The notes beneath the pieces are model-generated. The model ran no database searches. It was not told the DNA's origin and saw nothing but the letters and a program-made list of their open reading frames with translations. Below are positions 7,602-43,965 of a stretch of 64,000 nucleotides of DNA, piece after piece. The translations under genes and the position numbers were made by a program. This stretch comes from Mobula hypostoma (Eukaryota): NCBI RefSeq assembly GCF_963921235.1, contig NC_086097.1, positions 136,960,001-137,024,000 of the forward strand. The letters run 5' to 3'. Within the stretch, counting starts at the first letter, position 1. Each line of letters starts with the position of its first letter.

Positions 7602-7738
7602 CGCAAACACCAAGAATTCGGCAGATGCTGGAAATTCAAGCAACACACATCAAAGTTGCTGGTGAACGCAGCAGGCCAGGCAGCATCTCTAGGAAGAGGT
7701 ACCATCGACGTTTCAGGCCGAGACCCTTCGTCAGGACT
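7602..7738 (-). mobile_element. Short solo PLE terminal-repeat insertion carrying a hammerhead motif, with 11-bp flanking duplication
   Basis: Near-identical to the PLE 3' end at 26620-26750. taattttataa occurs at both 7591-7601 and 7743-7753. Confidence 0.8.
7703..7738 (-). ncRNA. Minimal type I hammerhead ribozyme motif (PLE-associated), core intact
   Basis: Minus strand: AGTC-CTGACGA-AGGGTCTCGGCCT-GAAA-CG-TC^GATG. Stem I is weak. Confidence 0.65.
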
Positions 7739-7950
7739 TTTATAATTTTATAATCCGTGCCTTAGTTCATGAATGCAAGAACTTCATACATCTTATTCAC
7801 TATTTCATTCAGGGGTCTTGAGACATTTGCTCTCTTTATTCCTCTATATTTCCCAGTTGGCCCAACAAACTGTACCTTGCCTTGTTTGTCTTCCCCAGAA
7901 TGCATGACCTCACACATCCACACTGAGCTCCATTTGCTATCTATGTGAGC

Positions 7951-7985
7951 AACACACACACACACACACGCACACACGCACACAC
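7951..7985 (+). repeat. (CA)n microsatellite
   Basis: aacacacacacacacacacgcacacacgcacacac. Confidence 0.9.
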
Positions 7986-8284
7986 CCCAAATGCTAGAGG
8001 AAGCCAGGCAGCATCTATGGAAATGAATGAACCGTCAAAGTTTTGGGCCAAGACCCTTCATCAGGGCTGTTGCTATTTCTTCGCCTACCTCACAAATCCA
8101 TTAAAACATTCCCTTTAGAATTACAGAGCTATACAGCATGGAAACAAGCCCTTCAGGCCCAAATAATCCATGCCTACCAAGATGCATGTCTAAGCAAATT
8201 CTATCTGCCTGCATCCCTCTAAGCCTTTCCTATCCATGAACCTGTCTGCACCTCTCCAGCCCCTCTGGCAGCTCTTTCCATACA

Positions 8285-9237
8285 CACTCAGTGGCAACTT
8301 TATTAGGTACGGGACTGCAGGATAGTTGTTCTACTTAAATACTTACCTGGCATTTGTCGGTAATTTCCAAGCCAATAAGCATTAACACAACTTTTTAGTT
8401 CTTGGAAAGCAAATGGATTTTGTGATGTTTAATAGAACAATTCAAGTTATCAACGTTGCTGCAGAAAAATAATAACTGGCTCTTCTACAGGGTCCTTGTG
8501 ACTCCTTTAGAATGTCCCAAAGCATTTTACAATCAATGGTACTAGTTCAGATTTAGATTAGCTTGTTATCCTATATACCAGAGGGCAGATGAGAATGGCC
8601 AAGGAGGCAGATATCCTTGATCAACACTGTTAGCCTTCCTAATGCAACGGACCAGGAAGATGGACGAGATGGAAGAAGTGAAGTGTAGCCACTGGTGTGT
8701 TATAGAAAACACAAAGACCAGTTTATTGTCACATGTCTGCTGCTATAGCCCATCCACTTCAGGGTTCGACGTGTCGTAGATGCAGACGTGCTTTTCTGCA
8801 CACCACCTTTGGAACATGTGGAAATTTGAGTTATTACTGCCTTCCTGTCAGCTTGATCCAGTCTGACCATTCTCCTCTGACTTCACTCATTAACAAGATG
8901 TTTTCACCCACAGAACTGCCACTCAGTGGGTGTTTTTTTTTTGTTTTTCCACACCATTCTCTGTAAACTCTAGAGACTGTTGTGCATGAAAATCCCAGGA
9001 GATAAACAGTTTCTGAGATACTCAAACCATCCTGTTTGGCATGAACAATCATTCCACAGTCAAAGTCACTTAAATCACGTTCCTTCCCCATTCTGGTATT
9101 TGATGTGAACAACAACTGAACCGTTTGTCCATATCTGCATGTTTTCATGCATTGAGGTGCTGCCACATGATCGGCTGATTACACATTTGCAGTAAGGACC
9201 AGGTGTACATCTGACCTAATGAATTGGCCACTGAGTG
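8285..9237 (-). mobile_element. Tc1-like DNA transposon, internally deleted, inserted in a CR1 3' fragment
   Basis: TIRs cactcagtggcaactttattaggt and acctaatgaattggccactgagtg, followed by TA on the right. ORF 8834-9166 encodes a Tc1 N-terminal HTH (MGKERDLSDFDCGMIV...GLSISETVYLLGFSCTTVSRVYREW). Confidence 0.85.
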
Positions 9238-11511
9238 TATTACCACCCCCTGTATGAAAAACCTACCCCTCAATCCCTCATAAATCATTGTCAATCCCTT
9301 ATAAATCATTGTCAAAGCTATAATCTCTGATAAACTCTGGGGAAAGCAGAGCAACTCAATGCTGCTCAATGTTAAACACCTCTCGACAACGTCACATCTC
9401 AGTCTCCTTTCTCTCCAAGTAAAATAATCCCAGCCTATCCAATCTCTCCTTATAACACAAACTCCCCGTAGTCTAAACTTTCCTTTTGACTATGAACACA
9501 CACCATTTTATGCACTCTCTTCGAATCTTTCACCTATGCTCCAAAATTTTCTCTGTAAATCTCTTCTCCTTGCAAAATGGCTTTCCGATTCAGATTCATT
9601 TGTTTAGCACATGCACATCAAAACATACAGTGATAAACACAAGGGATTCTGCAGATGCTGGAAATCCAGAACTACACACACAAAATGCTGCAGCAACTCA
9701 GCATGTCAGGCAGCTTCTATGGAAATAAATCAACAGTCAATGTTTCAGGCCGAGATCCTTCTTCAGGACCGAAAAGGAAGGGGGAAACAGTGATGTGTGT
9801 CATTTGTGTAGACAACCAACACCTAAGAATGTGCTGGAGGCAACTTGCAAGTATCGGCACACATTCTGGCACCTACAATGCTCGCCAGAACAACACAGAA
9901 TACAACAAAACGGAACACAAAAGGCAACCAAACAACAACAACAAAGCAAGCCCCTTTCCACCCTCCCACCCACTTGCGCACACGGACAGTCCTCCAACTC
10001 AAACCCCAGGACAGTCCCCAAGTCCACCCCTAAAAACAGCTGAGTCTGAGCTACAGGCTTGACAGAGACCACACCATGTTGACCAAAAGATTTTTTCCTG
10101 CAAAGCAGTTTCACTCCCGCCCCTCCCAAGCCCAGGAATAAAAAGATCCCATTCTCATTCGTTCTTATGCACATGTTTAAGATCATAACAGTATTGCAAA
10201 TTCATCCCTTTTGAGTGAGGGTTCATGAACACGTGGGTGCTTTAATGAATTGGGAATGCTGTTCCCAATGCCGGTGGTCCTGATGCATTCTGCAAACTAG
10301 AGCCACAGTATGGGTCAATCTTCTCAGACAGTGCTAGGGAAATCAGGGGAGTGGAGAGAAATCCACAGCTGCGGCCCACACACCTGCTTCATGAAAGCCC
10401 TTGGAGGCTACTTAGCTCCAACACCATTCTCTTTCTTAATGACTGAAACCAGTGGGCAGAAAGCCATTGTAAATTGACAAATTGAAGCTTTTACAATCCT
10501 AACACAAGTTTGGCTTTTATGTTATGGATTTATGGCATTAAACCCAAATGCAATTAGAAGCCCACATAAAACATTTTAAGACATGAGGTATTGAATGAGA
10601 AGACCCTGAAGGCTTGAAGAGAATGATCGGGCAGATCCAACATTAACATGTTTCTACTCTCTCTGCAGATTCTGCCTGATCTGGTATTTCTATGGATTTC
10701 TAGTATTTCCTGGTTTTATTTATTTCCATATCTACTACAGTGTTAGCAACTCTATAGATTTTTGCTTAATGTTAATCCTTTCAATTATATAACTCAAGGG
10801 AAATCCAAAAATTTACTTCAAGCATGTACAATGCATCCTCAAGGAATCTGATGCATGGGAAAGGCTGTAATCACCCAAAGTCCAGTGTTGTTTAATGGGT
10901 AGACAAGTTAGGCACCTTATACGCCGGTTGTGTGAACCTCTCCCACCCCAACTACATCCCGTTCCTGTCATCTGATTCATATGCTCTCTTTACATTGTCA
11001 TTAAACAACCAAGGGCAAAGTACATTGTGACATTCCCTCATATTGTCAACTGGATTGTAGTGTCACTTCCAAACAAATTACCATTCACTGAGAATGCCCG
11101 CAAAAATAATGATAACTGTGCCAGAGTTAGCTAGCCCTGTGTAAACTGACAGAAGCCTGAAGTCTCGTACCACCAGGTTCAAGAACCTTGAACCACCACA
11201 TTCTTCAACCAACCGACACAGCCCTGTTCACTACCTCAGTGTAGCAACACTCCAATCAATTTGACCTCTTTGCACCACAAAGGACCTTGTTAAAAATTCT
11301 AATTGTGTTCTTTCTTGAATTATTGAGTATAATTTATGCTTAATTTATGTTTATCATGTGACTGCTGTAACTGTGATGCTGCTGCAAGTTTTTCATTGCA
11401 CCTGTGCATATGACAATAAACTTGATTTGTACGTTCTCAGAATCATCTCTCTGCTTAAAAAAAAATCAGACAGTACATGCAGAAATCACTGTTATTTTAA
11501 TCATTACTCAC

Positions 11512-11589
11512 CAGAGCAGGAAGTTCGCAGCACTTGTCCTTGTTTGCATAGGACGTGGAACAGGAAATATCAAAGCCTTGCAACTGGAA
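11512..11589 (-). CDS. col14a1: col14a1 exon, TSPN end ([26 protein letters not shown])
   Basis: Acceptor atttcag, donor gtgagt, 78 nt, phase 0/0. Confidence 0.94.
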
Positions 11590-11699
11590 CTGAAATTTAA
11601 ATGAAATAATGAAAGGAAATCCTTGTGAGGCACCAAACAGTTTAAATCGGCAATACAACTCTGACTTGCTGGAAATCACTCTGCCCACATCAACCCTTT

Positions 11700-12345
11700 A
11701 AACTTGACCTCTCAACCATATTTCAAAACAAGCAGAAATGAACCACCTCCCATTAACATTCAGTGGTGCTAGCATCATTGAATCCCCCCGCCCACCTAGG
11801 ATCACTGTTCAACTGGACCAGCCACAAGAGTAGATCAGAGATTGGGCATCCTCCGGTAAACGATTCAACTGCAGAACTGCCAAAGCCTTTGAAATATCTA
11901 TAAGGCACAAGTCAGGCGTGTCATGGAATACCTCTCCCTTTGTCAAGATGAATGCAGCTTCAAAGCTCAATACAATCAGAACAACCAAGTTCCCAGCACC
12001 CATTCACTACCTGAAACACTCACTCCCTACACCACTGGCACACAGGGGCTCCAGCTATGTCCCAGGCCTCTCCAACACTGTGAACACCATCAGAAACAAG
12101 GACAAGGGAAGCAGGAACATGGGAATGCCACCATCTCTACAAATCACATACCATCCTAACCTGACACTAACCTGCCTTCACTGTCACTAAGTCTGAATCC
12201 TTGGACCTTCTCCCCAATTTCAGCATCATTATCATGTGGCTGGAAGGGTTCAAGGGGACAACTCACCTCCACCATCTTAAGGAGCAATTGGGGAGGGGTA
12301 GTAAATGCTAGGCTCACCAGTAACATCCTCATCAACTGAGAGAAT
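11700..12345 (+). mobile_element. Old, highly decayed CR1/L2-group LINE 3' fragment
   Basis: Degenerate RT C-terminal remnant (IYKAQVR-MEY-P) and 3' tail. A related minus-strand copy lies at about 61330-61790. Confidence 0.55.
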
Positions 12346-12589
12346 AACATAAGGGAGGAAAAAAATTTCCAGTGCTTCACTGATAGCATTTACAGGTCCT
12401 CCACGGGTTAGGACAGGGTTCTGTTCCAGTGAACAGTTCTTAGCCTGGACAGTAACAAGTCAGAAGTACTGCCACAAACAGTGTTCCCACCCGGGAGGGG
12501 GTTCATGCAGTTCTGTTGAAGCCAACAAGTGCATCCCAGCAGTCAGTCAAACGCACAATCGTAATGTATGGCTGTTCAAAACACAAACA

Positions 12590-12800
12590 CAAGAAAATCT
12601 GCTGGAAATCCAAAGCAACACACACACAAAGTACTGGAGGAACTCAGCAGGCCAGGCAGCATCTATGGAAAAGAGTAAACAGCTGATGTTTCAGGCCAGT
12701 CTTGATAAAGGGTCTCGGCCTGAAACATCGACTGTACTCTTTCCCATAGATGCTGCCTGACCTGCTGATTTCCTCCAGCATTTTATGTGTTGTTGCCTTG
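12590..12800. repeat. PLE-derived fold-back palindrome (inverted terminal-repeat pair)
   Basis: Arms ctggaggaactcagcagg...catctatggaa and ttcccatagatgctgcctgacctgctgatttcctccag flank a decayed hammerhead. Confidence 0.8.
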
Positions 12801-12905
12801 GGTGCTCATAACTTTTGGAGGAGCTGTTCTCTGACAATGCCCCTTATAAAGACTTGGACTACACAAATATACGGGTATAAGGTCTGAAATGGATAACATT
12901 CAGGT

Positions 12906-13148
12906 TTTTTTGTGTGTGCCCCATACTCTGCCAGAGCCTCGGCAACCACTTTTTTCAAGTGGTTGTCTTGGAGGAAAGATTCTGTGAGTTATCCCCCACG
13001 TTCTTCTCACAGCGCAGTTTTTTTTTACGAGGCCGGGTTGCGAGCTCAACACTCAACCCGAGCGTGCCCAGGAGCGGCCTGACTGGATTCGAACTCGGGA
13101 ACCTTCGCTCCGGAGTCCGGTGCTGATGTCACCGTGCCACCAGCTGGC
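12906..13148 (-). mobile_element. Full-length tRNA-derived SINE with A-rich tail and 11-bp TSD
   Basis: Minus strand has an A box (TGGCACGGTGA), B box (GTTCGAATCC) and A-rich tail. TSD copies are aacattcaggt (12895-12905) and aatgttcaggt (13149-13159). Confidence 0.8.
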
Positions 13149-13639
13149 AATGTTCAGGTAATTGATGATAGGATGCTGATAAATCTTTACATGGAAATCC
13201 AGCTTCCCCGCTCATCTTCAGTAAGTAGCAAAAAAACCTTTCCCATCCAGATGAGAGAGCAAACAGCACCTAAGTGTAACAGCTCAGCTGAAAGCCAACA
13301 CCCCTGGTCACGCAGTGCTCAGTCAGTTCTGCAATACCTTGGCCAGACTCCCGGCAGCTGAACCCACTGACTCAGAAAGGTAAGTGGGACCCTCTGCTGG
13401 TATCACCAAGATCCAGGGGCCCACCTCCATAAAGCAATGCAATCTGCCATCGAGGCTTTCAATATCCCTCACTCAGTTGAAAGATATGAAAATCAGAAAA
13501 ACCCTCTTTACACCAACTCTGTCGGTGATGTGTACAGCACAGGCAGTGTGACCACATCAGTTTCTCCACTAACAAAGCAGTGAAGAGAAAGTCAAAACTA
13601 CATTCAATGGTTCTTTGCCCTCACCTCAACAATAAGCAA

Positions 13640-14900
13640 ATGCTTTGAGAGGCTGGTCAAGGATTACATCTGCAGTTTGTTACCACGCAAACTGGACCCC
13701 TACAATTCGCCTGCTGACACAACCGATCGACAGACGACGCAATAGCCACTGCTCTACAAACCGTCCTTACACATCTGGAGAAGGAGGATGCTTATGTGAG
13801 AATGCTGTTCTTGGACTACAGTTCAGCATTCAACACCATAGTTCCATCCAGGCATGACAAGAAGCTCAGAGACGTCGGCCTTGACCCTACTTTGCGCAGC
13901 TGGATCCTGGACTTCCTGTCAGATCACCGGCAGGTGGTAAGAGTGGGCTCCCTCACCCCCAACCTTCTGACTCTCAATACAGGAGCCCCTCCTGGCTGTG
14001 TACTGAGTCCCCTCCTTTACTCCCTGTATACCCATGACTGTGTCACCACCCACAGCTCCAATCTGCTAATTAAATTTGCCAACAACTCTACACTGATTGG
14101 CCTCATCTCAAACAATAACGAGGTGGTCTACAGGGAAGAAGTTATCTGTCTGACACAGTGGTGTCAAGAAAACAACCTCTCCCTCAATGTCGCAAAAACA
14201 AAGGAGCTAGTCGTGGATTACAGGGGGAATGAAGACAGGCTAGCCCCTATTGACATCAATGGATCTGAGGTTAAGAGGGTAAACAGCTTTAAGTTCCTCG
14301 GCATCCACATCACCGAGGACCGCACTTGGTTTATACACACCAGCTGTGTAGTGAAAAAGGCACAACAGCGCCTCTTTCATGTCAGACAGTTGAGTAAGTT
14401 TGGAAGGGCCCCCAAGTCCTAAGAACTTTCTACAGGGGCACAATTGAGAGCATCCTGTCTGGCTACGTCACTGCCTGGTATGGGAATTGTACCTCCCTTA
14501 ATCGCAGGACTCTGCAGAGAGTGATGCGGACAGCCCAGTGCATCTGTAGTTGTGAACTTCCTTTGATTCAGGATATTTACAAAGACAGGTGTGTAAAAAG
14601 GGTCCATAGGATCTTTGGGGACCCGAGTCACCCCAGCCACAATCTATTCCAGCTGCTGCCATCTGGTAAACGGTACTGCAGCATAAAAGCCAGGACCAAC
14701 AGGCTCTGGGACAGCTTCTTCCACCAGGCCAACAGACTGATTAACTCACGCTGATTTGAGTGTATTCTATGTTACAATGACTGCTCTGTTTATTATAAAT
14801 TACTATGATTGCACATTGCACATTTAGACAGAGAAATACGTAAAGGTTTTTACTCGTCATGTATGTGAGGGATGTAGGAAATGAAGTCAATTCAATTCAA
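13640..14900 (+). mobile_element. Rex1/Babar-type LINE, 5'-truncated
   Basis: ORF 13796-14422 contains [40 protein letters not shown] and KFA. C-terminal HPSHNLFQLLPSGKRY and a (ttcaa)n tail follow. Confidence 0.9.
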
Positions 14901-16880
14901 TGTGTACTTGGGTCACTCCAGATACAACCACATCTAGCAGACAACAATGAACAGACGCAGCATTTTCTCTAACAACACAGGGAAGTTTATGGTCCACTAT
15001 CCATCAGCCTCTGTCACCTTACTAAAGCAATCATTGACAGTGGAAAGCAAAAACCTTTTCTAACAAGTTATCTTTGGAATTACCTTGTGAACTTTTAAAA
15101 TGTAGACGTAACGATTAACTGAGCATTAATGTAAAGCCAATTAATGACATTGACCAAGGAAGTCAGTCACACATATTCAAATAAATTATAAATAACATAT
15201 TCACAAAGGGGCAACTTAGTAGAGGGTATTTCAAAATGTGTTACAAGTAATGAAAGACCTTTAAAGTGTTACAAACATTGTATTAAAGGGAACAAGGAAA
15301 AAGAATCTGTCGTACACATAACAACGATAGTGATGAGATCATCTATGGTAGTTGCAAAGTAAATCAGTCACCAGTACAACATCCACCTGAGAATACAGTC
15401 CAGACTTCATTTTAATATCTTCTGAAAAATCATATCCCTCGTGGTGTAGCACTCTCTTGGTTGGGAGAGACCTTGTTAGACGAGAGTGCTACACCATGAG
15501 CCAAGACTTACAGTTTACAATGTATAAGATCAGTGGAAAGACCAAAAGTATTTGGGCTGGAATTGATGGTTACAGGTGATGTTGTAAAGAGCTGTTAAAG
15601 ACAAGGAGATGGGACACAGGGGAAATCATGATGACTTTACTGGTCCAGATTGCATTCCAATAAAACACAGAGCCATCTCTTCTTTATAGGAAAAAGGTCT
15701 GCTTGTATGTATGTGAAAATAATATCTCATTCAATTAAACTTAACATTAAACCATGTTTGAACATTATCTACAAAGAAGCCAGGCGTAAACAAAAGTTTG
15801 ATGATAGCAAATGTTAGATCTTCCTCAGATTTGTCAAGTCCCTCAAAATCAGACAGTATAGCACTGAATAAAATCTTTACTGCATCTGTAAAGAATATCA
15901 TCTCCATATGAAACTCCAGCAAATTGAAAAACTGGGCAACACATTCCCAGACAGGAAACATGCGAGTGTGTCAGACAATGACATCACTGTTTGTGTCGTG
16001 CTCAGTGATGTCACTCTCCATGCACCACACAATGACATTATTCATTGGCCCTCCCAATCACATCACTATCCATGCACCTCCAGTTCCTTTCCATCACAAC
16101 ATGAACTGGAGCTGAGATAGTTGTACATTAAGGTGTCCCATATGCAACACCACCAGCAGCTCTCATTAGCCAGATTCAACTGACCTGGTTTCTCATTGTA
16201 CAGTGCTGTATAAATGCCTAGCACAGAGTTTGTCATTACAATTGAAAAGTCTTGCAATAGGCCTACTAGTCCACAGGGAAACCTAATCAACATCACTCCA
16301 TGAGCCCTGAACTTGACATTCCCAGTCCTTATGCAACTTTTACAGACTGTTAGGATGACCAACAATGCCATTTTAATGCCAAAATAGGAAGAATGGAACA
16401 ATTCCTAGGTCCCCGTTTGTCCTCTCTGTTCAGTGAATGGTGGCCAGACACTATTCTGAAAAGCTCTCCAATAGTAATCCCTCGAATAATAATATTAAAA
16501 CAAATCCCTGGTCACCACTGGATCATGGGAGATGGCCATGCTGTACATCAGCCAGTACAACTATGGCTTCAGAAGTGCCCATTTAGCAGTAAGTTGCTTT
16601 AGCTACAGAAGTACAAATCTCTTTCCTTCCTTCTTGACTAAAATTCCCATAGTTGCATGAAGTGAAGTAGAATTTCCCTTTGTTAGTTCAAATCTCTCAG
16701 TCCTTGGGAAATCCAGCTGCTGGCTGATTCAATTATAATATTGTTAGTACATATTTTACAAGCAACACTACCCCAATATGACCTCACCCCTCGACATTCT
16801 CCCAACCCCACATCAACACCTCTCCCCAGACTGATGATAAAATGACATGCACTTTCCAGGCGATGAACTGCATCACTTAC

Positions 16881-17039
16881 TGATGCAGAATTGTCCCTCG
16901 GGCTCCTGGAGCGCACCATCCGTCCCAGGACTTCCACCCCATTGGTGCTGATGTTTCCTGCTGCGTTGATCGCTTTCTCCCCTACTTGCTTGCAGTCAAC
17001 CACCAGCTTTGCTTGGGTTTTGGTGATCACCACGTGCAC
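16881..17039 (-). CDS. col14a1: col14a1 exon, TSPN ([53 protein letters not shown])
   Basis: Acceptor ctaacag, donor gtaagt, 159 nt, phase 0/0. Confidence 0.95.
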
Positions 17040-17479
17040 CTGTTAGCAAAGAATGCAGAGCGTCATCACAAAGACTCGTAGGTTATTTGAGAAAGGAGCC
17101 TCAGCTTTCCCATCCTTTCCCAATGGCCCATTCTGTCTTCTCTACACTTTCTATAACTGGGGTGCAAAGTACAAATGTGAGCATATAAAATACAAACAGG
17201 AACCGATCATTTGATCTCTCATACTTGCATCACCATTTAATGTTATAGACTATTCTGATTCTTTTCCTTTCCCCAATTCCCCTGGTATCTGGAAGATCAG
17301 TCAATCCCAGTCCAAGAATATACTCTGAGAAGAGAATTCCAAAGATTCACAACCTTCCTAAATGACCTGTCCCATATCCCGATTTTGTGCTTCAAGTTCT
17401 AGACTCTCCAGCTTTGGGAAACAACCTCGCAATACCCAACCTCTCAAGATTCTAGGAGGAAAAGGATACAGTAGGATAG

Positions 17480-31240: not shown

Positions 31241-31349
31241 TGGCTGCAGCCTGTGTTGCTGCCCATTACTCAGAAGCATCAAAGTTGGTGAAATATAACT
31301 ATGGGAGATTGTCCCCTCCAGTTCCGGATAACCCCAAGATAGAAAACAT

Positions 31350-32925: not shown

Positions 32926-33154
32926 AGTCCGTAGCATCCTTTGTCATGGACTCAGGTGGGCAGGCTGGGGCTCTGTTTATCTCCAAGGCAACTCTTCAAA
33001 CAGTGCAGCATTCCCTCAGTGTCCCAGAGAACCACCAGCCAGGATCTTTGTGCTCACAACCTCAGACCAGGACTTCAGTGACTCTGAATTGGATACCCTG
33101 AACTATGACAGACAGGTTGCACTGATTTAACACACATACATTAGGAAAATAATA

Positions 33155-33890: not shown

Positions 33891-34138
33891 GGAAAATAAT
33901 TTTTGTTTAGTTTTATAACTGTGAGAATATATATCCTTGAACAAATTATTGCTTTATAGGTCACCATGGAGCTTTGATTGTGATGCGATCATTTCCAAAT
34001 GATAGGGAGACAATAAACAATTTCAGCAGAACATCAAAGAGAAATCAAAGGGAAACTCAACAGTCTTCCTCAGTATATGAGTACACCATCGGCTGGAGAC
34101 CTCCAGTGAATGATGACGTGTCAGCTGATGTCCCTCAC

Positions 34139-34177
34139 CTGCCAGGTTGTTTTCTCCAATGTGGACCATCGGGCAAG
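34139..34177 (-). CDS. col14a1: col14a1 39-nt micro-exon, VWA-TSPN linker (TCPMVHIGENNLA)
   Basis: Acceptor cttccag, donor gtgagg, phase 1/1. Fits the TCPxxHxxxxxLA linker expected between the neighbouring exons. Confidence 0.88.
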
Positions 34178-34589
34178 CTGGAAGTAGAACAATTACACAC
34201 GTCAGTGCCAGGAGTCATTCCACAACCCCATTCACAAAGGCTCCTAGCTATCCAAGACACACGGAGCTCACATTCCTGATCACAGACTCCCAAACACATT
34301 TACCGGATCCCAAATTCCCAATCACACATTCCAGATTTCAGACACTGGGTCACACATTTTCCACCATAGATTCCAGATCCCACATTCCCAACACAGACAT
34401 TGGGTCAGCATTCCCAATCACCCACTCCAGATCCCCATTTGGTCACAGACCCTGGATCCCACTTGTTAGGGATTATTTTGGGGTTATGTCAATATAACAG
34501 ATATCAATAATAAATAAAACAGAAGCACTACACTACAGCAGAGAGAGGAGAGTGAACACATACACAGGCAGCAGGTTCACTTTTGTGAT

Positions 34590-35025
34590 GGAGCATTATT
34601 ACCTTATGGTTGAGTAAACTTGGACTTTTCTCCTTGGAGTGGCAGAGGATGAGAGGTGACCTGATAGAGGTGTAGGAGATAATGAGAGGCATTGATCGTG
34701 TGGATAGTCAGAGGCTTTTTCCCAGGGCTGAAGTGGCTAGCACGAGAGGGCGCAGTTTTAAGGTGCTTGGAAGTAGGTACAGAGGAGATGTTAAGGGTAA
34801 GTTTTTTTTTTCGCAGAGAGTGGTGAGTGTGTGGAATGGGCTGCCAGCGACGGTGGTGGAGGTGGATACGATAGGGTCTTTTAAGAGACTCCTGTATAGG
34901 TACATGGAGCTTAGAAAAATAGGGGGCTATGGGTAGACCGAAGTAATTTCTAAAGTAAGTACATGCTCGGCACAGCTTTGTGGGCTGAAGGGCTGGTATT
35001 GTGCTGTAGGTTTTCTATGTTTCTA
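34590..35025 (+). mobile_element. CR1 3' fragment inserted in the ERV
   Basis: Contains MRGIDRVDSQRLFP...FFSQRVVSVWNGLP and a ttctatgtttctatg tail. Confidence 0.88.
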
Positions 35026-37004
35026 TGACATGGGCACAGAGGGCTTTTGTAACCTCAACAGGTGCAGGCATTCAGCACGGGCACCCAATACAAGTACTGC
35101 TCAAAGCAGTGAAGTTGCCTGAAGAGGTGGCAGTGATTAAAGTAAGGCTCACCAGAGAAGGAAAAGTAATGAGCAGAAAGGGAATAAATGAGCAGACCTC
35201 AGGGCAAAAAGAGCCGAAGAAGAAAGCAAATCAATAGAAATTGATTTCTGTTGAAATTCGGCATAGAAGGAAAATCTAACACAGCCTATCTAGTAAAACT
35301 ATATGAGGATGTGGAAGCAGAGGAGAAGGAGAAGTGGAGAGGAGGAGGAACAAAAGAGGGACCAAAGGCATGGGGAAGGAATAGTTGTAGCCCCAGCATG
35401 TATTAGGCAGATACTGCTAAAGTTATATCATGGGTCAATGCATCAGGGAAGGCACAATATGGTCCCAACCCTCTTGGTGGTGACCAGAGATGGGCAGGGA
35501 CGTGGAGAAGTTTTGCTGGACATGTATCAGTTGTGCCCAATGTAACCGCGGAGGGATACAAAGGTGCAGCTAGCAAACCAAGTGGGGGGCTAGGAAATCA
35601 TCCAAATGACCTAATGGGACCCTGCCAAAAATCAGGGGGAAAAGCTACTGCCTGGTGATCGTGGATCACTTCAGCTGATGGGTAGAGGCTTTCCTGACAA
35701 GGCATTGTACCACCAGCACGGCGGCATGGATTTCACCTCAGGAAATCCTCCCCAGGGTGGGGAATCCCAGCCCAGGTGGACACCGATCAGTGACCACAAT
35801 TCACAGGAAATGTGATGAAGAAAATGTACAAGCTGTTAGGCATTCGACAACGATTCCATGTACTCTGTCACCCTCAGAGCTTTGGAACGGTAGAAAGGAT
35901 GGGCTAAACAATCAAAACTGCCTTAGCTAAACCTATAGACATGGGCTGATGCATTGCCAGGAATCTTGATGGGATTGCGAGCAACCCCAAACTGCCCGAT
36001 GGATCTCAGCCTCCACGAATTACTGGTGGGGCAAGCAACTCGATTCCCTTACGAAGTGATCACGGATTGCAGTAAACCTTGAACTTTTAGAGATAACATG
36101 GCCAGTATGCAAGGAACCTCTGTAAACAGCTTAAAGTGTTGAAGGGCCGATCAAAATAACAGCATCACCTTGCCAATGAGAGAGAGAGCCAGAGGAAGAG
36201 AAGATCATCCTCCCACAGCCAGGAGACTAGGTCATGGTAAGGGAGCTACCTGAAAAGGCTGGGTTCAATTCCAGATCAATAGGACCACAGGCGGCGCTTC
36301 TGACAAATGACACCTGTGTCTGTGCGCAGACACGGCGAGGCAGCCAGTGGAAACACTGGACCCAGGTCAAACTGTACGACTCACCTTGTCGCCCTCACAG
36401 ACAGAACAAGGGATCAAGTCCACCCATTAACAGTGTCATTACCGAGCTTCAGCAGCCTGCTGTGTCACATCTGACCACACCTGATGGAAGTAGACCCACA
36501 GATGAAAGAAAACAGAGATGTGAAAGCTGAAGGCACAGAGAAAGCATGTCAGCAAACCGTGAATAAAGTGTTGCAGTATACCAGGAACTGCACTCTGTAA
36601 TGATGGCTGGTTCTGGGAGGTAGGTGATTAGCTGGATAGATCAGAATAGGAAGATATTGGGGAAAATAGACAAGGGGGGATCAGAGTTATGGCAGAGACA
36701 TCAAGTTGCACAGCCTTGGTGGCAAGGCAGACCAAGAAAGAAGAAATTGTACCTAGCATCTGAAGGCAGCCACCCCAACCTGGAATGGGTGTGGACACAA
36801 ATGACAGGGGCTCTTTCAGTCTTCAGGCCAGCAATCAAAACGACAGACCAGGAAGGGGTGCCACCCGAGTGAGATCCAAATGGACACCACTCTAAACCCT
36901 CCCGTAGTTCGACTGAAAGGACTGAAAGACTTGCCAGATTATTCTGGCAATCCCCTGTCATGGCATGGAATGTGAACTGTTGCCTATGGCACAGAGTAAC
37001 TACT

Positions 37005-37490
37005 GAAGTCACACTCAGGTTGGAGGAACAGCACCTTATATTTTGTCTGGGTAGCCTCCAACCTGATGGCATGAACATTGACTTCTTTAACTTCCGCTAA
37101 TGCCCCACGTCCCCCTCGTACCCCATCCGTTATTTATTTATATACACACATTCTTTTTCTCTCTCTCCTTTTTCTCCCTCTGTCCTCCTCACTATACCCT
37201 TTGCCCATCCTCTGGTTTTTTTTCCCCCTTCCCCCTTTTCCTTCTCCCTTGGCCTCCTGTCCCATGATCCTCTCATATCCCCTTTGCCAATCACCTGTCC
37301 AGCTCTTGGCTCCATCCCTCCCCTCCTGTCTTCTCCTATCATTTTGGATCTCCCCCTCCCCCTTTCAAAACTCTTACTCACTCTTCCTTCAGTTAGTCCT
37401 GACAAAGGGTCTCGGCCTGAAACGTCGACTGTACCTCTTCCTAGATATGCTGCCTGGCCTGCTGTGTTCACCATCAACTTTGATGTGTGT
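37005..37490 (+). mobile_element. PLE 3' fragment inserted in the ERV; hammerhead core mutated (CTGACAA)
   Basis: Near-identical to the reverse complement of 26650-27135. Confidence 0.9.
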
Positions 37491-38919
37491 TATTGTTAGC
37501 CACTGTTCCGTTTTAGCTCTCAGATATTGAAGGGGCAAAGATAAGGATATGTAGACAGCAATGGACCAGCAGGGAAGGAGGCAACAAGCACATGAATGCC
37601 AAAGCTGCATTTTAAAGACTGGTTTATATCGAGAGGACAAAAGTATCCAAGAAGAGGATCTGATCAAATTTCTGAAATGTTTTATTGTGGTCTTTTCTTA
37701 GTCTTGTAGATACCCAATTAGGGATGATAGAGTAACATCGATGCATATAGGGACGTCATAGGTTAGCAATTGGGGAAGAGATCCGGTGAAGGGTATTCTC
37801 ACTGCCCTATTTAATTAGATACTCCTTAAAGTTTAGCCTTCCTGAGACAGATTGCTGTCTAGGAGTCAAGAGGAAGATATGTTAGGGAGTATTTTGGAGT
37901 TATGTCAATATAATAGATATTAATTCATGCAAGAACCAGTTTTCAGTTTTTATTGTAAATTACAAGCAGTAAACTGCAGCTAAAAATCCATAGATAAGGT
38001 TTGCATATTCATTACTCCAACATTAAGACAATGGGGTCGTGTTAATTGGCCTGCATCAAACCCGGCAACATGGGCTAAGTTGTTTGCACCATTGTGACTT
38101 GAGTGCAAGCTGGCAAACCAGATGGATATTCTCACTTAGCATATCAAATATGGTCACAGGTATTGACAATCAATATTTTTTGTGTAGACAGACAGTTCTG
38201 ACAACATTAATTTTGGGTGTCTGGCTCTCTGTCGTCAGAAGATTTTCAAATATCTGTGCTAATTATTTTCTCTCAACAAAGGTGTTTGAACCTTCAAAGG
38301 TGTTTTATCAATCACTGTAAATATGTACCTCAAAGGAATCATCCATCAAGCCAAAGTATTGAAGTAAGCAACGTCATTGTAACTATTGAAATTGCATTGA
38401 ACCACCTGCTGCTATCTTTGATCTTAAGGGTATAAAATTGTGATGTACCTTTGGGTTTATCAGCCTCTACCAAGAGCGTCTCCAGAATGAAGCTTGCTTG
38501 TCACAGCACCATTTTCCAATCATGACGCAGATTCACACATTCCAAATCCCAGACTCTTTTTTTTAATGCATTCCCAATCATGGGATTTCTGATTAGACAC
38601 TCTGATTTACACAATCTGAATCATAGAACAGGTATCATGGGCTATCCAATCATGGGATTCCCAATCATAGCCCTGAAGGTGAACTGAAACTGAGAGACTG
38701 ATGGATGTAAGTACTTGGCAATATACTCAGTGATGATATACCGTGACAGTCGAATAATTGAGATTTTCATTCGACATCCCTCAGTCATTTCTGCACCTGA
38801 CGTGCACCACGTTGATCAGGGTAAACTATAGGTAGCATACCCCAGCTATCAACCACTCTCTGTGTAAAAGTCTGTCTCTCAGATCCCCTTTAAAACTCTT
38901 TACTCTCATCTTAAGATTT

Positions 38920-39460
38920 GTGGCACTGAATACCATTATTCCCTCAGGATTAATCACCAAAATCTGGGTATCTGTACCTCCCTCTGCAACTGGATCCTCC
39001 ACTTCCTCATCAGGAGAGCAGTCAGTGTGGATAGGCAATGACATCTCCTCCACGCTGACAACACAGGTGCAGCTCACAGAGATGCCCATCTCTCACAGAG
39101 CCCACTGCTCTACCCTCTCTACAGTCATGATTATGTGGGTAAGCACAGAACAAATGCTTCTATAAATCCAACACTGACAATAGTAGCGTTGGTAGAATCT
39201 CAGATAGCAACAAGGTGGTGTACAGGAGTGAGCTGGGTCAGCTGGCCGAGTGGTGCCACAACAACAACCTTGCACTCAAAATGTCAGCAAGACCGAGGAA
39301 CTGATTGTGGACTTCAGGAAGGGGAAGTCGGGAGAACACACACCGGTCCTCATGGAGGGGTCAGCAGCAGAAACGGTGAGCAGCTTCATGTTCCTGGGTG
39401 TCAGCATTGCGGAAGGTCTATCCTGAATGCAAAAGCATGCCAGTAGCTCTACTGTGTTAG
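38920..39460 (+). mobile_element. Decayed Rex1/Babar-type fragment
   Basis: Remnants ctgcaactggatcctccacttcct, gaggaactgattgtggacttcagg and agcttcatgttcctggg. Confidence 0.75.
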
Positions 39461-40149
39461 CAATTTGACAACCTGCCCATCTACCCTATCTATGGGATCC
39501 AAGACTAAGTTTGCCTCAAATGGTCATGGCACCTGTGAAAGGAGAAACGGTGCCCCAGACCACTGGTCACACAACATAGCAGGAAAACCCTTGAGTGAGT
39601 GTGCAGCCTTTCCCAAGAGAGTTCTGCCAAAGCTGGGGGCATCGTCGGAACAGGATCAGCAATAAAATAGCACATGTGAACCGTAGAATCTGGATCAAAT
39701 TAAGTGTCTTCCACAGGGAACACTGGATGAAACACCTTGCATTGCTGAGTTGGGGTGATATTATGTTTGGAGATAAGATCCAGTCTGGAAACCGGAAGGG
39801 GGAACACGGCACAGCATGTGGACGGGAGGGTGACCCACGAGACCAGCAGTGAGGGTATGGGAAAGTTGGACTATCAGCTGTGTGTGAGCATCACTCAGAA
39901 CCCAGAGTCAGCTCGCCAAGCAGTGAGGCACACTGAACTAGTCACAAGACAAGACGCCTACTGAGAGGGAGGGAGAGTTGAGAGCAAAAAGGTATAATGA
40001 CCATTGACAGTTCCGCCACAAATCGCTGAATTGGGAGGCCAGTCTGAAACTCATACATATCAGCAGCAAGGGTTATATGGAGGAACTCAGCAAGTAATGC
40101 GGCATCGATGGAGGGAAGGGGACAGTGAATGTTTTGGGTCAGGACCCCT

Positions 40150-40235
40150 AACCCTGCACTATTTCTATCTGCTACCCAAGATTCACAAATAAGACTGCCC
40201 CGGTAGGCCCATTATTTCTGCTTGTTCCTGCCCTT
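40150..40235 (+). mobile_element. Isolated PLE reverse-transcriptase fragment
   Basis: Translates to FYLLPKIHK*DCPGRPIISACSCP, the characteristic PLE RT N-terminal motif. Confidence 0.75.
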
Positions 40236-40369
40236 TATAGAACCTCTCCGCCATGGCAAAGGCTCATCTCTGCTACCCACAACCTACCTGTTGACAAATC
40301 TGACCAGAGTCATTAAGAGAGACTAGGGAATGGAAGTCATGCCCCTTATCAGCCATGTGAATTTTGTAT

Positions 40370-40850
40370 CTAAGGAAGGTGTGCTGGTCTAGAAAAGGTT
40401 CACAAGAATGACCCAGGAATGAAAGGTTTAACGTACAAGGTGTACTTGATGTCTTTGGGCCTGAGCTCAGGATGATGGGGATTCTGAAACCTCCTGGATA
40501 CTGAGTGGTCTGGATGAAGTGGGCATGGAGAGGGTGTTTCAATCACTAGGAGTCTTGGATACGAGGGCACTGCCTCAGAATAAAGGGACATCATTTTAAA
40601 GCTGAGATGAAGAGCAATGTTCTCAACCAGAGGTAGGTGAATCTGTGGAATTTGATGCTGCAGAGGGCTGGGGATGCCAAGACATTAGGTGTGCTCAAGG
40701 TAGAGATTGATAGGTTTTTGATTAGTAAGGGGTTTAAGGGTGATGGAAGGAAGACAGGAGAATGGAGTTGAGAAAAAAAATCAGCCATGATTGAATGGAG
40801 GAGCAGACTCGATGGGCCAAATGGTCTAATTTTGCTCCTAGAACTTACAG
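40370..40850 (+). mobile_element. CR1 3' fragment
   Basis: RT C-terminal remnant and a 3' UTR (gagcagactcgatgggcc) matching the reverse complement of about 620-660. Confidence 0.82.
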
Positions 40851-41404
40851 TCGTGTGACAGATCTAGCCCTAATTCGAGGTGCCCACAGAACACCTTGAC
40901 CAACAAGATGGACATCAGGCACTGAATGAGTGAAGGCTTTCCACCACAGTGGACAGGGTGCATGGAGCTCCAGAGGAAAGCTTTCGATACACCCTCATAA
41001 ACTTATTGGTCCCCTTAATGCAGCGACAATGCACTTTAAACTTCAGACTCACCGACAGGTAATAAATCAACTGAATTCCAATGAAGATTTGGTCATCTCC
41101 AGATCTGACTAACCTTGAATTTCCATCACTTTACCACAAGCAGTCGTGTCTTCAGCTGGGTCCCAAGTTCTGGCATTTCCCCACCAATTCCCTTCAGCAG
41201 TCTGCCCTCAGAATTTCCCTGCAGATCCCCTCCCTCAAACTCTCCTTCCCACATGAATCCTTTTGCCCTAAAAACCTCCTTATACAGCTCAACTGCAGTT
41301 TTAACTTAGTCGCAGCACAGTGATCCCCACGGGATATTAAAATGCTGGAGGAGCTGTGGAAGTAAAGATTGTTATTATTAAAATATTTAGTCACAGGGAC
41401 TCAC

Positions 41405-41569
41405 TTGCAGAGGCCGTCTCACAGACAAAGGTGACAAGCTCATCCTCAATCTTCTTGAAGGCGTCAAAGTCGTCCACGAAGAAGGCATGCCTGCTGCTGG
41501 GTTTGTTTGCAATGCTGATGAGCTCTGAGTAATCAGCATCAGCGACGCCAACTGCAAAGATACTGTACC
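41405..41569 (-). CDS. col14a1: col14a1 exon, VWA end ([55 protein letters not shown])
   Basis: Acceptor gctgtag, donor gtgagt, 165 nt, phase 1/1. Confidence 0.95.
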
Positions 41570-42499
41570 CTACAGCAGAAGGAGAAAAGGAGGAGGGGAG
41601 TGTCTTAATCTCATGGGATCCTGGAAGGACTGGACTAAAGCTGGTTCACTCACACTCCCCTCCCCACACCCCATCCCTTGCAGTCTCAAAAACACCATCC
41701 AGATGGGCTTAAGACATACATGGGTCAAGGTACCCCAGCTATGGGAACTTCCATTTTAATTGCAATACAGAATGCTCCTGGTCATATTACAGTCTGTATA
41801 TGGGTTTTCACAGCTCAGACACAGGCCACTCAGTCCAAGGGCTCCAATGCTGGTGATTCTGTCCCACAACAGCCCCCTTACATCATTTCCATTTCCTTCC
41901 ACTATTTCTCCCCAGTACGTTTCTTTCTCTTTAGTGTATCTGCATTAATTGCCTCAAAACACTCAATGTCAGAGGGGCTTTGAAATAGTGGTACTCAACA
42001 TAAATTAACTCTCAATTTGTCGATCAGGAGAACACTGACTCCATGGACCTTGCCTCTGGTTTTATCCTCAGCTATCTAAAACAACCTGCGCTCGGGAACT
42101 CTCATCTCCATGCACCATCGTAAACACTTTGATTGCCCCACCTCCCCCTCCGGTTCCCCCAATCTGAATGAGTGCAGAGCCAGTCCACTCATCAAGTGCC
42201 TGTCCTGATACTATTGAAGCATCTCCACCAGATTTCTCATTTGTAACCACCATACGAGTTTCCTCCGATTCATTTTTAGCCACTTCAATAAAAAGTACTC
42301 AGGTTTTAGTCATTTCCTTTATAGAGAAAAGTTTCTTAGTGTTTAGCCTCTTTACATCCCTCAGTTTTGTGCATCTCTATCTGCTCTCCCCTCAAACTCC
42401 GCTGCTTTCCCACCTGATCCCAATGACCAGTGTCCAATGGCCTATCGATCCCAACATTGAATATTCTTGATGACTACACATCCCCAGGGAGATCCAGAG

Positions 42500-43056
42500 A
42501 TCAAGCAACGCACATCAAAGTTGCTGGTGAACGCAGCGGGCCAGGCAGCATCTCTAGGAAGAGGTGCAGTCGACGTTTCGGGCCGAGACCCTTCGTCAGG
42601 ACGAACTGAAGGAAGAGTTAGTAAGAGATTTGAAAGTGGGAGGGGGAGGGGGAGATCCAAAATGATAGGAGAAGGCAGGAGGGGGAGGGATGGAGCCAAG
42701 AGCTGGACAGGTGATTGGCAAAAGGGATATGAGAGGATCATGGGACAGGAGGCCCAGAGAGAAGGAAAAGGTGGAGGGGGGAGAAATCCCCGAGGATGAG
42801 CAAGGGGTATAGTGAGAGGGTCAGAGGGAGAAAAAGAATGTGTGTATATAAATAAATAACGGATGGGGTACGAGGGGGAGGTGGGGCATTAGCGGAAGTT
42901 AGAGAAGTCGATGTTCATGCCATCAGTTTGGAGGCTACCCAGACGGAATATAAGGTGTTGTTCCTCCAACCTGAGTGTGGCTCCATCTTTACAGTAGAGG
43001 AGGCCGTGGATAGACATATCAGAATGGGAATGGGACGTGGAATTAAAATGTGTGGA
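42500..43056 (-). mobile_element. PLE 3' segment, inverted partner of the adjacent plus-strand copy
   Basis: GIY-YIG C-terminus THFNSTSHSHSDMSIHGLLYCKD...NIDFSNFR followed by the terminal repeat. Confidence 0.9.
42568..42603 (-). ncRNA. Minimal type I hammerhead ribozyme motif, core intact
   Basis: Minus strand: CGTC-CTGACGA-A-GGG(TCTCGG)CCC-GAAA-CG-TC^GACT. Confidence 0.7.
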
Positions 43057-43064
43057 TTCCCTTG

Positions 43065-43965
43065 AAAATTCGTCCCCCCCCCCCATCCCTCCCCACTGAT
43101 CTCCCTCCTGGCACTTATCCTTGTAAGCGGAACAAGTGCTACACATGCCCTTACACTTCCTCCTTTACCACCATTCAGGGCCCCAGACAGTCCTTCCAGG
43201 TGAGGCGACACTTCACCTGCGAGTCAGCTGGGGTGATATACTGCGTCTGGTGTTCCTGATGTGGCCTTCTATATATTGGCAAGACCCGACGCAGACTGGG
43301 AGACCGTTTCGCTGAACACCTACATTCTGTCCACCAGAGAAAGCAGGATCTCCCAGTGGCCACACATTTTAATTCCATGTCCCATTCCCATTCTGATATG
43401 TCTATCCACGGCCTCCTCTACTGTAAAGATGAAGCCACACTCAGGTTGGAGGAACAACACCTTATATTCCGTCTGGGTAGCCTCCAATCTGATGGCATGA
43501 ACATTGACTTCTCAAACTTCCGCTAATGCCCCACCTCCCCATCGTACCCCATCTGTTATTTATTTTTATACACACATTCTTTCTCTCACTCTCCTTTTTC
43601 TCCCTCTATCCCTCTGACTATACCCCTTGCCCATCTTCTGGGATTTTTCCCTCCCCTCACCCTTTTCCTTCTCCCTGGGCCTCCTGTCCTATGATCCTCT
43701 CATATCCCCTTTGCCAATCACCTGTCCAGCTCTTGGCTCCATCCCTCCCCCTTCTGTCTTCTCCTATCATTTTGGATCTCCCACTCCCCCTCCCACTTTC
43801 AAATCTCTTACTAGCTCTTCCTTCAGTTAGTCCTGACGAAGGGTCTCGGCCTGAAACGTCGACTATACCGTTTCCTAGAGATGCTGCCTGGCCTGCTGCG
43901 TTCACCAGCAACGTTGATGTGTGTCGCTTGAATTTCCAGCATCTGCAGAATTCCTCGTGTTTGCA
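43065..43965 (+). mobile_element. PLE 3' segment (Cys linker, GIY-YIG and terminal repeat)
   Basis: Translates to PCKRNKCYTC...HFTCESAGVIYCVWCS*CGLLYIGKTRRRLGDRFAEH, with one in-frame stop. Confidence 0.92.
43828..43865 (+). ncRNA. Minimal type I hammerhead ribozyme motif, intact, 5-bp stem I
   Basis: TAGTC-CTGACGA-AGG(GTCTCGG)CCT-GAAA-CG-TC^GACTA; predicted cut after 43860. Confidence 0.78.

What the first reader, a model, noticed from the sequence alone, without database searches (positions are those of the whole stretch)
7703..43865. Dispersed array of PLE minimal hammerhead ribozymes inside the col14a1 pre-mRNA, three intact copies in the sense orientation
Seen: the motif stemI-CTGACGA-stemII-GAAA-CG-TC^-stemI' has an intact core at 7703-7738 (-), 26712-26749 (-), 42568-42603 (-) and 43828-43865 (+). 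Mutated copies occur at about 8035-8068, 9735-9769, 12697-12734, 37394-37431 and 48815-48850. A second subfamily (48815) has a different stem II loop (TTCCAG) but keeps the stems, which supports the fold. Established: PLEs carry minimal type I hammerheads whose helix III is reduced to the palindrome ACGU, and these cleave mainly as dimers. Inference: col14a1 is transcribed from the minus strand, so one nascent transcript carries three competent half-ribozymes in different introns. They could pair through ACGU and cut introns co-transcriptionally, affecting splicing or releasing defined intronic or circular RNAs.
Basis: partly seen in the sequence, partly recalled or inferred. Interest (0 to 1): 0.72.

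Follow-up and report, generated by a model that had tools for sequence, protein, structure and literature searches.

The report
Penelope hammerhead debris in collagen introns
These motifs are end-pieces of a very abundant Penelope-type jumping gene scattered through the introns of a collagen XIV gene in what is likely a ray; they carry a tiny self-cutting RNA motif already known from such elements, but the three sense copies lie 16-35 kb apart, one is predicted to be locked in a long hairpin, and they likely do not cut the host transcript, so this is ordinary.

Summary
The motifs are real. Four intact minimal-hammerhead cores lie at the stated places (chance 0.02), in introns of col14a1, which runs on the minus strand across the window. 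They are pseudo-LTR ends of a GIY-YIG Penelope-like element; a profile finds 29 remnants in 64 kb. The proposed intron-cutting dimer is not supported. (1) 42568 and 43828 are two arms of one fold-back insertion, so the sense copy is predicted to sit in about 560 bp of duplex. (2) 7703 and 42568 keep only 3 bp of helix I, and 7703 and 26712 lack G10.1-C11.1. (3) Partners are 16-35 kb and 2-7 exons apart. (4) Intact cores and orientation fit chance, and decay is CpG-driven. (5) The 7703 insertion is absent in one relative and probably a second. (6) A probable RNA contig splices exactly across all three introns. Published PLE hammerheads cleave poorly even in tandem. The scan has noted this element many times before, in this genome and others. 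Side observation: many stubs begin at the 5' edge of helix I.

The parts
7602..7742 (-). 141-bp PLE stub of the young subfamily that begins at the 5' edge of helix I. Hammerhead 7703-7738, core intact, predicted cut after 7707, helix I 3 bp, G10.1-U11.1. 11-bp target-site duplication at 7591-7601 and 7743-7753.
   Evidence: empty site in organism D and probably C, present in B
26619..27895 (-). 5'-truncated PLE: C-terminal part of the ORF with a CX4CX2C linker and GIY-YIG endonuclease (frame 27042-27563), then the pseudo-LTR with hammerhead 26712-26749 (core intact, predicted cut after 26717, helix I 5 bp, G10.1-U11.1). 12-bp target-site duplication at 26607-26618 and 27896-27907.
   Evidence: (PF01541, 23.6 bits, cut-off 22.6)
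42505..43055 (-). Left (sense) arm of a head-to-head PLE insertion. Hammerhead 42568-42603: core intact, G10.1-C11.1, helix I 3 bp, predicted cut after 42572. Predicted to be fully paired with the right arm in the pre-mRNA.
   Evidence: (I2, I4)
43058..43963 (+). Right (antisense) arm of the same insertion, with GIY-YIG remnant and hammerhead 43828-43865 (core intact). A 10-bp target-site duplication at 42495-42504 and 43964-43973 flanks both arms.
   Evidence: a contig of organism C leaves the window at 42494 and runs on for 340 other letters, one of organism B ends at the element
37004..37491 (+). 5'-truncated young PLE copy, antisense to col14a1; hammerhead 37394-37431 with G8A, a CpG transition
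8003..8068 (-). Old decayed stub that begins at helix I; core G12A, G16.2U, C17U
9635..9769 (-). Old decayed stub; core G16.2A, C17U
12600..12797 (.). Fold-back of two old pLTR arms joined at helix I; the plus-strand hammerhead 12697-12734 has C3U, G8A, G16.2A
26251..26449 (.). Fold-back of two old pLTR arms joined at the hammerhead; core destroyed
   Evidence: (I20)
48702..48920 (.). Fold-back of two old pLTR arms joined at helix I; the plus-strand hammerhead 48815-48850 has G12A, C17U and an altered loop 2
   Evidence: (I17)
33154..33882 (-). Older-subfamily PLE 3' end with a GIY-YIG-like remnant and a deleted hammerhead core
3442..63645 (-). col14a1, 18 exons (residues 869-1542 of the stingray protein P0002). 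Host introns of the three sense copies: 41570-44218 (2649 nt), 24736-34138 (9403 nt), 6358-11511 (5154 nt).

Best explanation
These hammerhead motifs are the pseudo-LTR ends of truncated insertions of a very abundant Penelope-like retrotransposon in the introns of col14a1, and they likely decay as neutral debris without cutting the host pre-mRNA. Shown: the motif lies about 300 nt downstream of a GIY-YIG frame; the three intact-core insertions each have a 10-12 bp target-site duplication; about 23 insertions of different ages lie in the window; core changes fall mostly on CpG sites; one insertion is missing in a relative; the exons are joined exactly in a probable RNA contig. Inferred: the motif worked in the master element's own tandem transcript, as a double hammerhead (ACGU x ACGU helix III plus two swapped helices I), probably helped by the element's protein, as reported for other PLEs. 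Intact cores here mark young copies, not selected ones. Predicted: in the pre-mRNA the 42568 copy is paired to its antisense arm, which is transcribed about 1.2 kb earlier. The other two fold into local hairpins. A partner appears only 4-10 min later (at mammalian Pol II rates), after 2-7 exons, when the first intron is long complete.
For: Element anatomy. Abundance: 29 hits; summed contig depth about 6 million against about 50 on unique flanks in run X5 (order of magnitude only, the tool warns it is no copy number). Neutrality: among 5 young copies, core changes 1 of 70 against 19 of 395 elsewhere (Fisher p=0.34), and 2.5 intact of 5 expected against 4 seen. Orientation: 3 sense of 4 p=0.63; intact by orientation 3 of 18 against 1 of 11, p=1.0; 18 sense of 29, p=0.26. 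CpG decay: 18 of 65 CpG core positions changed against 10 of 117 others (p=0.001), 16 of the 18 being the expected transition (13 of 18 rows used; 5 with indels or poor alignment dropped); the 11.1/12 dinucleotide is TG 9, CA 7, CG 2 of 18. Sequestration: in 42450-44000, 1124 of 1551 nt are in long-range pairs, and helix I and II probabilities are 0. Polymorphism: a contig of organism D joins 7575 to 7743; one of organism C leaves at 7743. Splicing: one 7575-nt contig of run X9 places exon 41405-41568 at 2486-2649 and exon 6270-6357 at 3318-3405 with no mismatch, and the 668 nt between equal the six intervening exons, 39+139+143+110+159+78. Literature: no monomer and low dimer activity (PMC4209133); no cleavage without PLE protein and no RNA-seq ends at the site in Anolis (PMC11167929).
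Against: The core is slightly better kept than the flanks in the young copies (1.4% against 4.8%). The difference is not significant, but five copies give almost no power. Sense copies are not depleted, which fits inertness but also tolerance. A spliced contig shows that normal mRNA exists, not what share of transcripts is cut; X9 is only guessed to be RNA, and contigs cannot show ends. The folding energies ignore tertiary stabilisation and had no positive control. 7703 and probably the fold-back are shared with organism B. An empty site for 26712 was not shown. No genome was available for a genome-wide strand test.
Confidence: 0.88

Rival explanations
1. One reading: the three sense copies on one nascent col14a1 transcript pair in cis through ACGU and helix I, cut two introns co-transcriptionally, and change splicing or release defined RNAs.
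For: Three intact cores in sense orientation in one gene. Cross-pairing of helices I is possible on paper (4+3, 4+5 and 5+3 bp). An intronic ribozyme can tune splicing (CPEB3, PMC10274809, passages).
Against: 42568 is predicted to be in about 560 bp of duplex. The remaining pair, 26712 and 7703, is 19.0 kb and five exons apart and is the least stable heterodimer: the active fold lies 13-26 kcal/mol above the two monomer ensembles (secondary structure only, no positive control). The count and orientation fit chance. 7703 is absent in a relative. Dimers described so far are neighbours in tandem, and their activity is low (PMC4209133; PMC6765202, passages).
Confidence: 0.03
2. Incidental cutting: where the element's protein is made, it binds intronic pLTR copies such as 26712 and refolds them, alone or with a partner from another of the many transcripts that carry the motif. 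This would give a low level of intron cleavage across long genes, with col14a1 one target among thousands.
For: The Anolis PLE hammerhead cleaves only when the PLE protein is added (PMC11167929). 26712 keeps the whole pLTR and a 5-bp helix I. The density is one insertion per 2.8 kb, and pLTR sequence is abundant in the probable RNA run (may be DNA).
Against: No RNA-seq ends at the cleavage site in Anolis (PMC11167929). No purge of sense or intact copies in this window. 26712 has G10.1-U11.1, and helix II probability is 0 with flanks of 60 nt or more.
Confidence: 0.07
3. Any effect on col14a1 RNA comes from the long inverted repeat, not from catalysis. The 1459-bp fold-back fills more than half of a 2649-nt intron and would form about 560 bp of double-stranded RNA, a likely A-to-I editing substrate that shortens the effective intron. 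This is compatible with the best explanation.
For: Arms 93-96% complementary; predicted duplex.
Against: The flanking exons are joined normally in the X9 contig. Editing was not tested. Such fold-backs are a common PLE insertion form (PMC8557442, passages).
Confidence: 0.1

Closest known systems
Minimal type I hammerheads (min-HHR) in pLTRs of metazoan PLEs, including fish Xena, Poseidon and Neptune (Cervera and De la Pena 2014, PMC4209133)
   Same: CUGANGA and GAAA boxes, no loop 3 with palindromic 15.2-16.2, one extra nucleotide between 9 and 10.1, short helix I, place in the pLTR, mostly single dispersed copies, pairs on opposite strands 100-700 bp apart
   Different: Helix II is only 4 bp with a 4-nt loop, against 7-8 bp in Schistosoma. 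Three of four intact cores have G10.1-U11.1. No cartilaginous fish is named in the main text read; its supplements were not seen and may list some.
Endonuclease-bearing PLEs with a zinc-finger linker, Neptune/Nematis type (described in Craig et al. 2021, PMC8557442)
   Same: C-terminal GIY-YIG, CX2-5CxxC linker, strong 5' truncation, adjacent inverted 5'-truncated copy, hammerhead in the pLTR
   Different: The RT core is not in the window, so the clade was not tested by a tree. Clear 10-12 bp target-site duplications are present.
Poseidon of Anolis (PAc; Frangieh et al. 2024, PMC11167929)
   Same: pLTR hammerhead; the 7703 stub sits in an AT-rich site; 3' ends lie about 100-135 nt past the motif with variable tails
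   Different: There the activity was measured (protein-assisted, not needed for insertion in vitro); here nothing was measured.
Non-LTR retrozymes (preprint 10.64898/2026.07.22.740005)
   Same: Type I hammerhead of PLE pLTR origin
   Different: No tandem units here: Tandem Repeats Finder shows none with the motif.
Intronic host-regulatory ribozymes (CPEB3, PMC10274809; ultraconserved amniote intronic hammerheads, as cited in PMC6765202)
   Same: A self-cleaving motif in an intron, in sense orientation
   Different: CPEB3 is conserved across mammals and self-cleaves with a 2-3 min half-life. These copies are young repeats, at least one lineage-restricted, and cannot form helix III alone.

Membership tests
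PLE minimal hammerhead (min-HHR) | Catalytic boxes CUGANGA, GAAA and UH in type I order | tested here: met
   4 copies with all 14 scored positions unchanged
PLE minimal hammerhead (min-HHR) | Helix III reduced to a palindrome without loop 3 | tested here: met
   A15.1 C15.2 G16.2 U16.1 in the 4 intact copies and in 37394
PLE minimal hammerhead (min-HHR) | [quoted passage not shown] | tested here: met
   One A, then a 4-bp stem, paired in 91.7% of cells over 18 copies; no covariation beyond shuffles
PLE minimal hammerhead (min-HHR) | Conserved G10.1-C11.1 pair | tested here: inconclusive
   Met in 42568 only; G-U in 7703, 26712 and 43828. The TG/CA/CG pattern (9/7/2 of 18) points to an ancestral CpG, so the family meets it and most copies have drifted.
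PLE minimal hammerhead (min-HHR) | Helix I of 4-5 bp | tested here: inconclusive
   5 bp in 26712 and, by inspection, in 43828; 3 bp in 7703 and 42568
PLE minimal hammerhead (min-HHR) | Position in the pLTR of a PLE | tested here: met
   About 300 nt 3' of the GIY-YIG frame in 26619-27895 and 43058-43963
PLE minimal hammerhead (min-HHR) | Self-cleavage as a dimer | not testable with these tools
   Needs an in vitro assay
Rfam hammerhead families | Covariance-model match | tested here: not met
   No hammerhead model at E<=1 in the window; not filed under an Rfam family
Endonuclease-bearing Penelope-like element | C-terminal GIY-YIG endonuclease | tested here: met
   PF01541 above its cut-off
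Endonuclease-bearing Penelope-like element | Telomerase-like RT upstream in the same ORF | tested here: inconclusive
   The longest copy is truncated at 27895; the upstream frame has no Pfam hit; no genome to look for a full copy
Endonuclease-bearing Penelope-like element | pLTR with hammerhead; inverted 5'-truncated neighbour | tested here: met
   feature as described in PMC8557442 (passages)
Neptune/Nematis-type PLE | CX2-5CxxC linker before the endonuclease | tested here: met
   CX4CX2C seen by eye in frame 27042-27563; clade not tested by phylogeny
Non-LTR retrozyme | Tandem units, each with a hammerhead | tested here: not met
   No such array
Conserved intronic regulatory ribozyme | Kept at the orthologous site across species | tested here: not met
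   7703 absent in organism D and probably C; the fold-back probably absent in C; 26712 not resolved
Conserved intronic regulatory ribozyme | Cleavage fast enough to compete with splicing | not testable with these tools
   Only contigs were available; they cannot show RNA ends

The most novel reading that the evidence does not exclude
In this lineage the PLE hammerhead is so dense (one insertion per 2.8 kb here) that every long pre-mRNA carries several intact cores. When the element's protein is expressed, for example in the germ line, it refolds them and cuts introns across the transcriptome, so a transposon would impose a protein-switched ribozyme load on host splicing, with the 26712 copy in col14a1 as one target.
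Probability: 0.06. Interest if true: 0.7.

Novelty: new member of a known kind. Interest (0 to 1): 0.13.

Why it matters
If intronic PLE hammerheads did cut host pre-mRNAs, a known but unexplained motif would gain its first effect on host genes, and in genomes with one copy every few kilobases the effect would be general. The evidence here points the other way: the copies behave as ordinary transposon debris, and col14a1 is not special. The part with some value is mechanistic and concerns the transposon, not the host: stubs and fold-backs start at the 5' edge of helix I, not at the cut site, which bears on how PLEs are copied. Earlier notes of this scan already report that on genome-wide counts.

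Tried and rejected
Whole-genome strand-bias test: no genome is held for this window, so it was not done. Rfam search: no hammerhead hit; the mir-1791 hit at 48762-48883 (43 bits against a gathering score of 75) is the fold-back hairpin and was rejected as a miRNA. Covariation as support for the fold: score 0.199 against 0.197 in shuffles, rejected. '48815 is a second subfamily': it falls in an unresolved group of older copies, so one copy does not define a subfamily. Retrozyme array: none. RNA ends at GUC: no RNA holder is listed as such and no raw-read run is offered; contigs cannot show ends. Empty site for 26712: a contig of organism D breaks at 28194, but that is 300 bp outside the element's boundary (27895), so it was not counted. 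Loose ends at 7738 (201, 169, 162 and 42 contigs in the four runs) were not used as proof of a genome-wide start hotspot, because the reference itself leaves the repeat there. Dimer energies: all six pairings come out unfavourable, homodimers included; without a known active control this ranks pairs but does not prove inactivity. Look-up of earlier findings by sequence: nothing. Lunse et al. on dimer cleavage (PMC5785218) is not held and is cited only through a review. Searches for a paper on PLE hammerheads in sharks or rays showed none in the 15 rows listed of 201 and of 249; this is no proof of absence.
Full report
Observation. The five mutated copies are also present. An exon at 16881-17042 finds collagen alpha-1(XIV) of rays and sharks as best hits (sawfish 96%, stingray 94%). 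The stingray protein maps 18 exons on the minus strand from 63645 to 3442, and one weak extra hit was dropped as chance. So the whole stretch is inside col14a1 of what is likely a ray, and the copies at 42568, 26712 and 7703 are sense copies in three introns of 2649, 9403 and 5154 nt. No Rfam hammerhead model matches.

What the motif belongs to. At 26619-27895 (-) the motif lies about 300 nt downstream of a frame with a CX4CX2C linker and a GIY-YIG domain above the Pfam cut-off, and the insertion has a 12-bp target-site duplication. This is the 3' end of an endonuclease-bearing Penelope-like element (PLE); the RT core is cut off. The 7703 copy is a 141-bp stub of the same young subfamily (support 100/100 with the four long copies) with an 11-bp duplication in AT-rich DNA. 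The copies at 42568 (-) and 43828 (+) are not independent: they are two arms of one head-to-head insertion, 42505-43963, with one 10-bp duplication, the inverted form described for PLEs (PMC8557442, passages). A profile of the motif plus about 65 nt finds 29 remnants, 18 sense and 11 antisense. By my pairing six are second arms of fold-backs, which leaves about 23 insertions, one per 2.8 kb. Summed contig depth over the element is about 100,000 times that of unique flanks in a close relative; the tool warns that this is no copy number.

How intact are the three sense copies? All keep the 14 scored core positions. But helix I is 3 bp in 7703 (one of them G-U) and in 42568, and 5 bp in 26712. 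Pair 10.1-11.1, called highly conserved as G-C in PMC4209133, is G-C only in 42568. Whether G-U is decay or the state of the master copy cannot be told from 5 copies. Folded in its pre-mRNA context (42450-44000), 42568 pairs base for base with 43828-43864, with 1124 of 1551 nt in long-range pairs and zero probability for helices I and II; the antisense arm is made first. So no sense copy has at once the canonical closing pair, a full helix I and freedom from a competing duplex. Monomers fold into other hairpins (helix I probability at most 0.11). The active double-hammerhead fold lies 8-28 kcal/mol above the monomer ensembles for all six pairings, and 26712 with 7703 is the worst heterodimer. 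These numbers ignore tertiary contacts and have no positive control, so they only rank the pairs.

Timing. The copies are 15.9, 19.0 and 34.9 kb apart, while each is 1.0-2.0 kb from its own 3' splice site. At the 3.5-4.1 kb/min quoted for mammalian Pol II (PMC10274809, passage) a partner appears 4-10 min later, after 2-7 exons; the rate in a ray is unknown. CPEB3, the best case of an intronic ribozyme that tunes splicing, self-cleaves with a 2-3 min half-life (same paper). PLE minimal hammerheads showed no monomer activity and low dimer activity, and a form with an engineered helix III cleaved mostly at non-physiological Mg2+ (PMC4209133). The Anolis PLE hammerhead cleaved only with the element's protein, and no RNA-seq reads ended at its site (PMC11167929).

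Selection. Among the five young copies the core differs at 1 of 70 positions and the rest at 19 of 395 (p=0.34); 2.5 intact cores are expected and 4 are seen. Three sense of four is chance (p=0.63), intactness is not tied to orientation (3 of 18 against 1 of 11, p=1.0), and sense copies are not purged (18 of 29, p=0.26). Power is low, and the slight trend is towards core conservation. Across 13 well-aligned copies (5 of 18 dropped for indels or poor alignment), core changes fall on CpG positions: 18 of 65 against 10 of 117 (p=0.001), 16 of the 18 being the expected transition, including the catalytic G12 and the G8A of 37394. That is the signature of methylated, unselected repeat DNA. The 48815 copy keeps its stems without compensatory change and has G12A and C17U; covariation over 18 copies equals that of shuffles (229 of 500).

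Relatives and RNA. Of 24 listed runs I laid four (X5, X11, X13, X9) on 24501-44500 and 6200-11700; all are contigs. A contig of organism D joins 7575 to 7743 with 14 letters between, an empty site; one of organism C leaves at 7743; one of organism B runs into the element. At the fold-back, a contig of organism C leaves at 42494 and continues for 340 other letters whose place was not shown, while organism B's contigs end at the element; this suggests, but does not prove, an empty site in C. For 26712 nothing was resolved. Run X9 (organism A, guessed to be RNA) holds a 7575-nt contig that joins exon 44219-44362 to 41405-41569 without mismatch and reaches exon 6271-6357 after exactly 668 nt, the sum of the six exons between, with splice sites read. 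Normal mRNA is therefore made across all three introns; how much transcript is lost to cutting cannot be read from contigs.

Mechanism and odds. Most likely (0.88) the motif served the master element, as a protein-assisted double hammerhead in its tandem transcript (inferred from the papers above), and the intronic copies are inert debris whose intact cores reflect youth. Incidental protein-assisted or trans cleavage gets 0.07. A non-catalytic effect of the 560-bp hairpin, compatible with the main reading, gets 0.10.

Side observation. Of 21 copies examined, 5 clearly continue into the upstream pLTR; 8 (7703, 8035, 12697, 23698, 26339, 48815, 52795, 63064) show no upstream similarity and begin within a few bases of the 5' edge of helix I; 8 are ambiguous. 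This occurs in both the young and the old group, and it is not the cut site. I noted it before seeing that earlier notes of this scan report it genome-wide.

Known or new. The motif class, its place in PLE pLTRs, its dispersal as single copies and its dimer requirement are published (PMC4209133). Four paper searches listed no description of this ray family, but only the top rows of the two broad searches were seen and no supplements were read; those of PMC4209133 may list cartilaginous fishes. A 2026 preprint found related retrozymes in one chondrichthyan and under-represented in Xenopus introns. The scan has noted the same element repeatedly: 1838 of 2891 notes in this genome fit the words hammerhead and Penelope, and eight listed notes on similar loci reach the same reading; these are unchecked notes, not support. 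Verdict: new member of a known kind, interest 0.13.

Papers seen: PMC4209133 and PMC11167929, parts 1-2 of 4 (abstract, results, discussion, start of methods); preprint 10.64898/2026.07.22.740005, part 1 of 5 and passages; PMC6765202, PMC8557442, PMC10274809 and PMC2288634, passages only (the last not relied on); Lunse et al., not held and known only from the review's citation. Hammerhead numbering follows the figure legends of PMC4209133 and my own recall.

Noticed in passing
window 7738, 8068, 12697, 23698, 26343, 48815, 52796, 63060: Stubs and fold-back junctions begin at the 5' edge of hammerhead helix I, not at the cut site, in both young and old copies (8 of 21 examined clear, 8 ambiguous). 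This suggests a template 5' end or an RT stop there.
   Followed up: partly
window 26750-26775 (-), 33287-33310 (-), 43800-43828 (+): The full pLTR has a polypyrimidine tract ending in CAG just upstream of helix I, like a 3' splice site. In D. virilis Penelope the intron end maps to helix I (PMC4209133). Sense copies could act as cryptic acceptors in col14a1 introns; none was seen in the one probable RNA contig.
   Followed up: no
window 42505-43963: The fold-back fills 55% of a 2649-nt intron and would form about 560 bp of double-stranded RNA, a candidate A-to-I editing site.
   Followed up: partly
window 48762-48883: The PLE fold-back scores 43 bits against Rfam mir-1791; such hairpins can be mis-annotated as microRNA precursors in these genomes.
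   Followed up: yes
window 47123-47230 (-): An old pLTR copy in which part of the hammerhead appears locally inverted.
   Followed up: no
window 834-3024 (-), 28780-29150, 30797-32596 (-): Decayed CR1/L2-like LINE fragments (RVT_1 hit in 1467-2585; family name recalled); the copy near 31078-31240 is interrupted by a 21/42-nt minisatellite.
   Followed up: no
window 13718-14754, 20754-21420, 27910-28240, 58967-59476: Fragments of another LINE family; the 26619-27895 PLE appears to have inserted at the edge of one of them.
   Followed up: no
window near 38500: Contigs of organisms B and C both leave the window at 38500 and run on with other letters, which suggests an insertion or deletion specific to the window's own lineage.
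   Followed up: no
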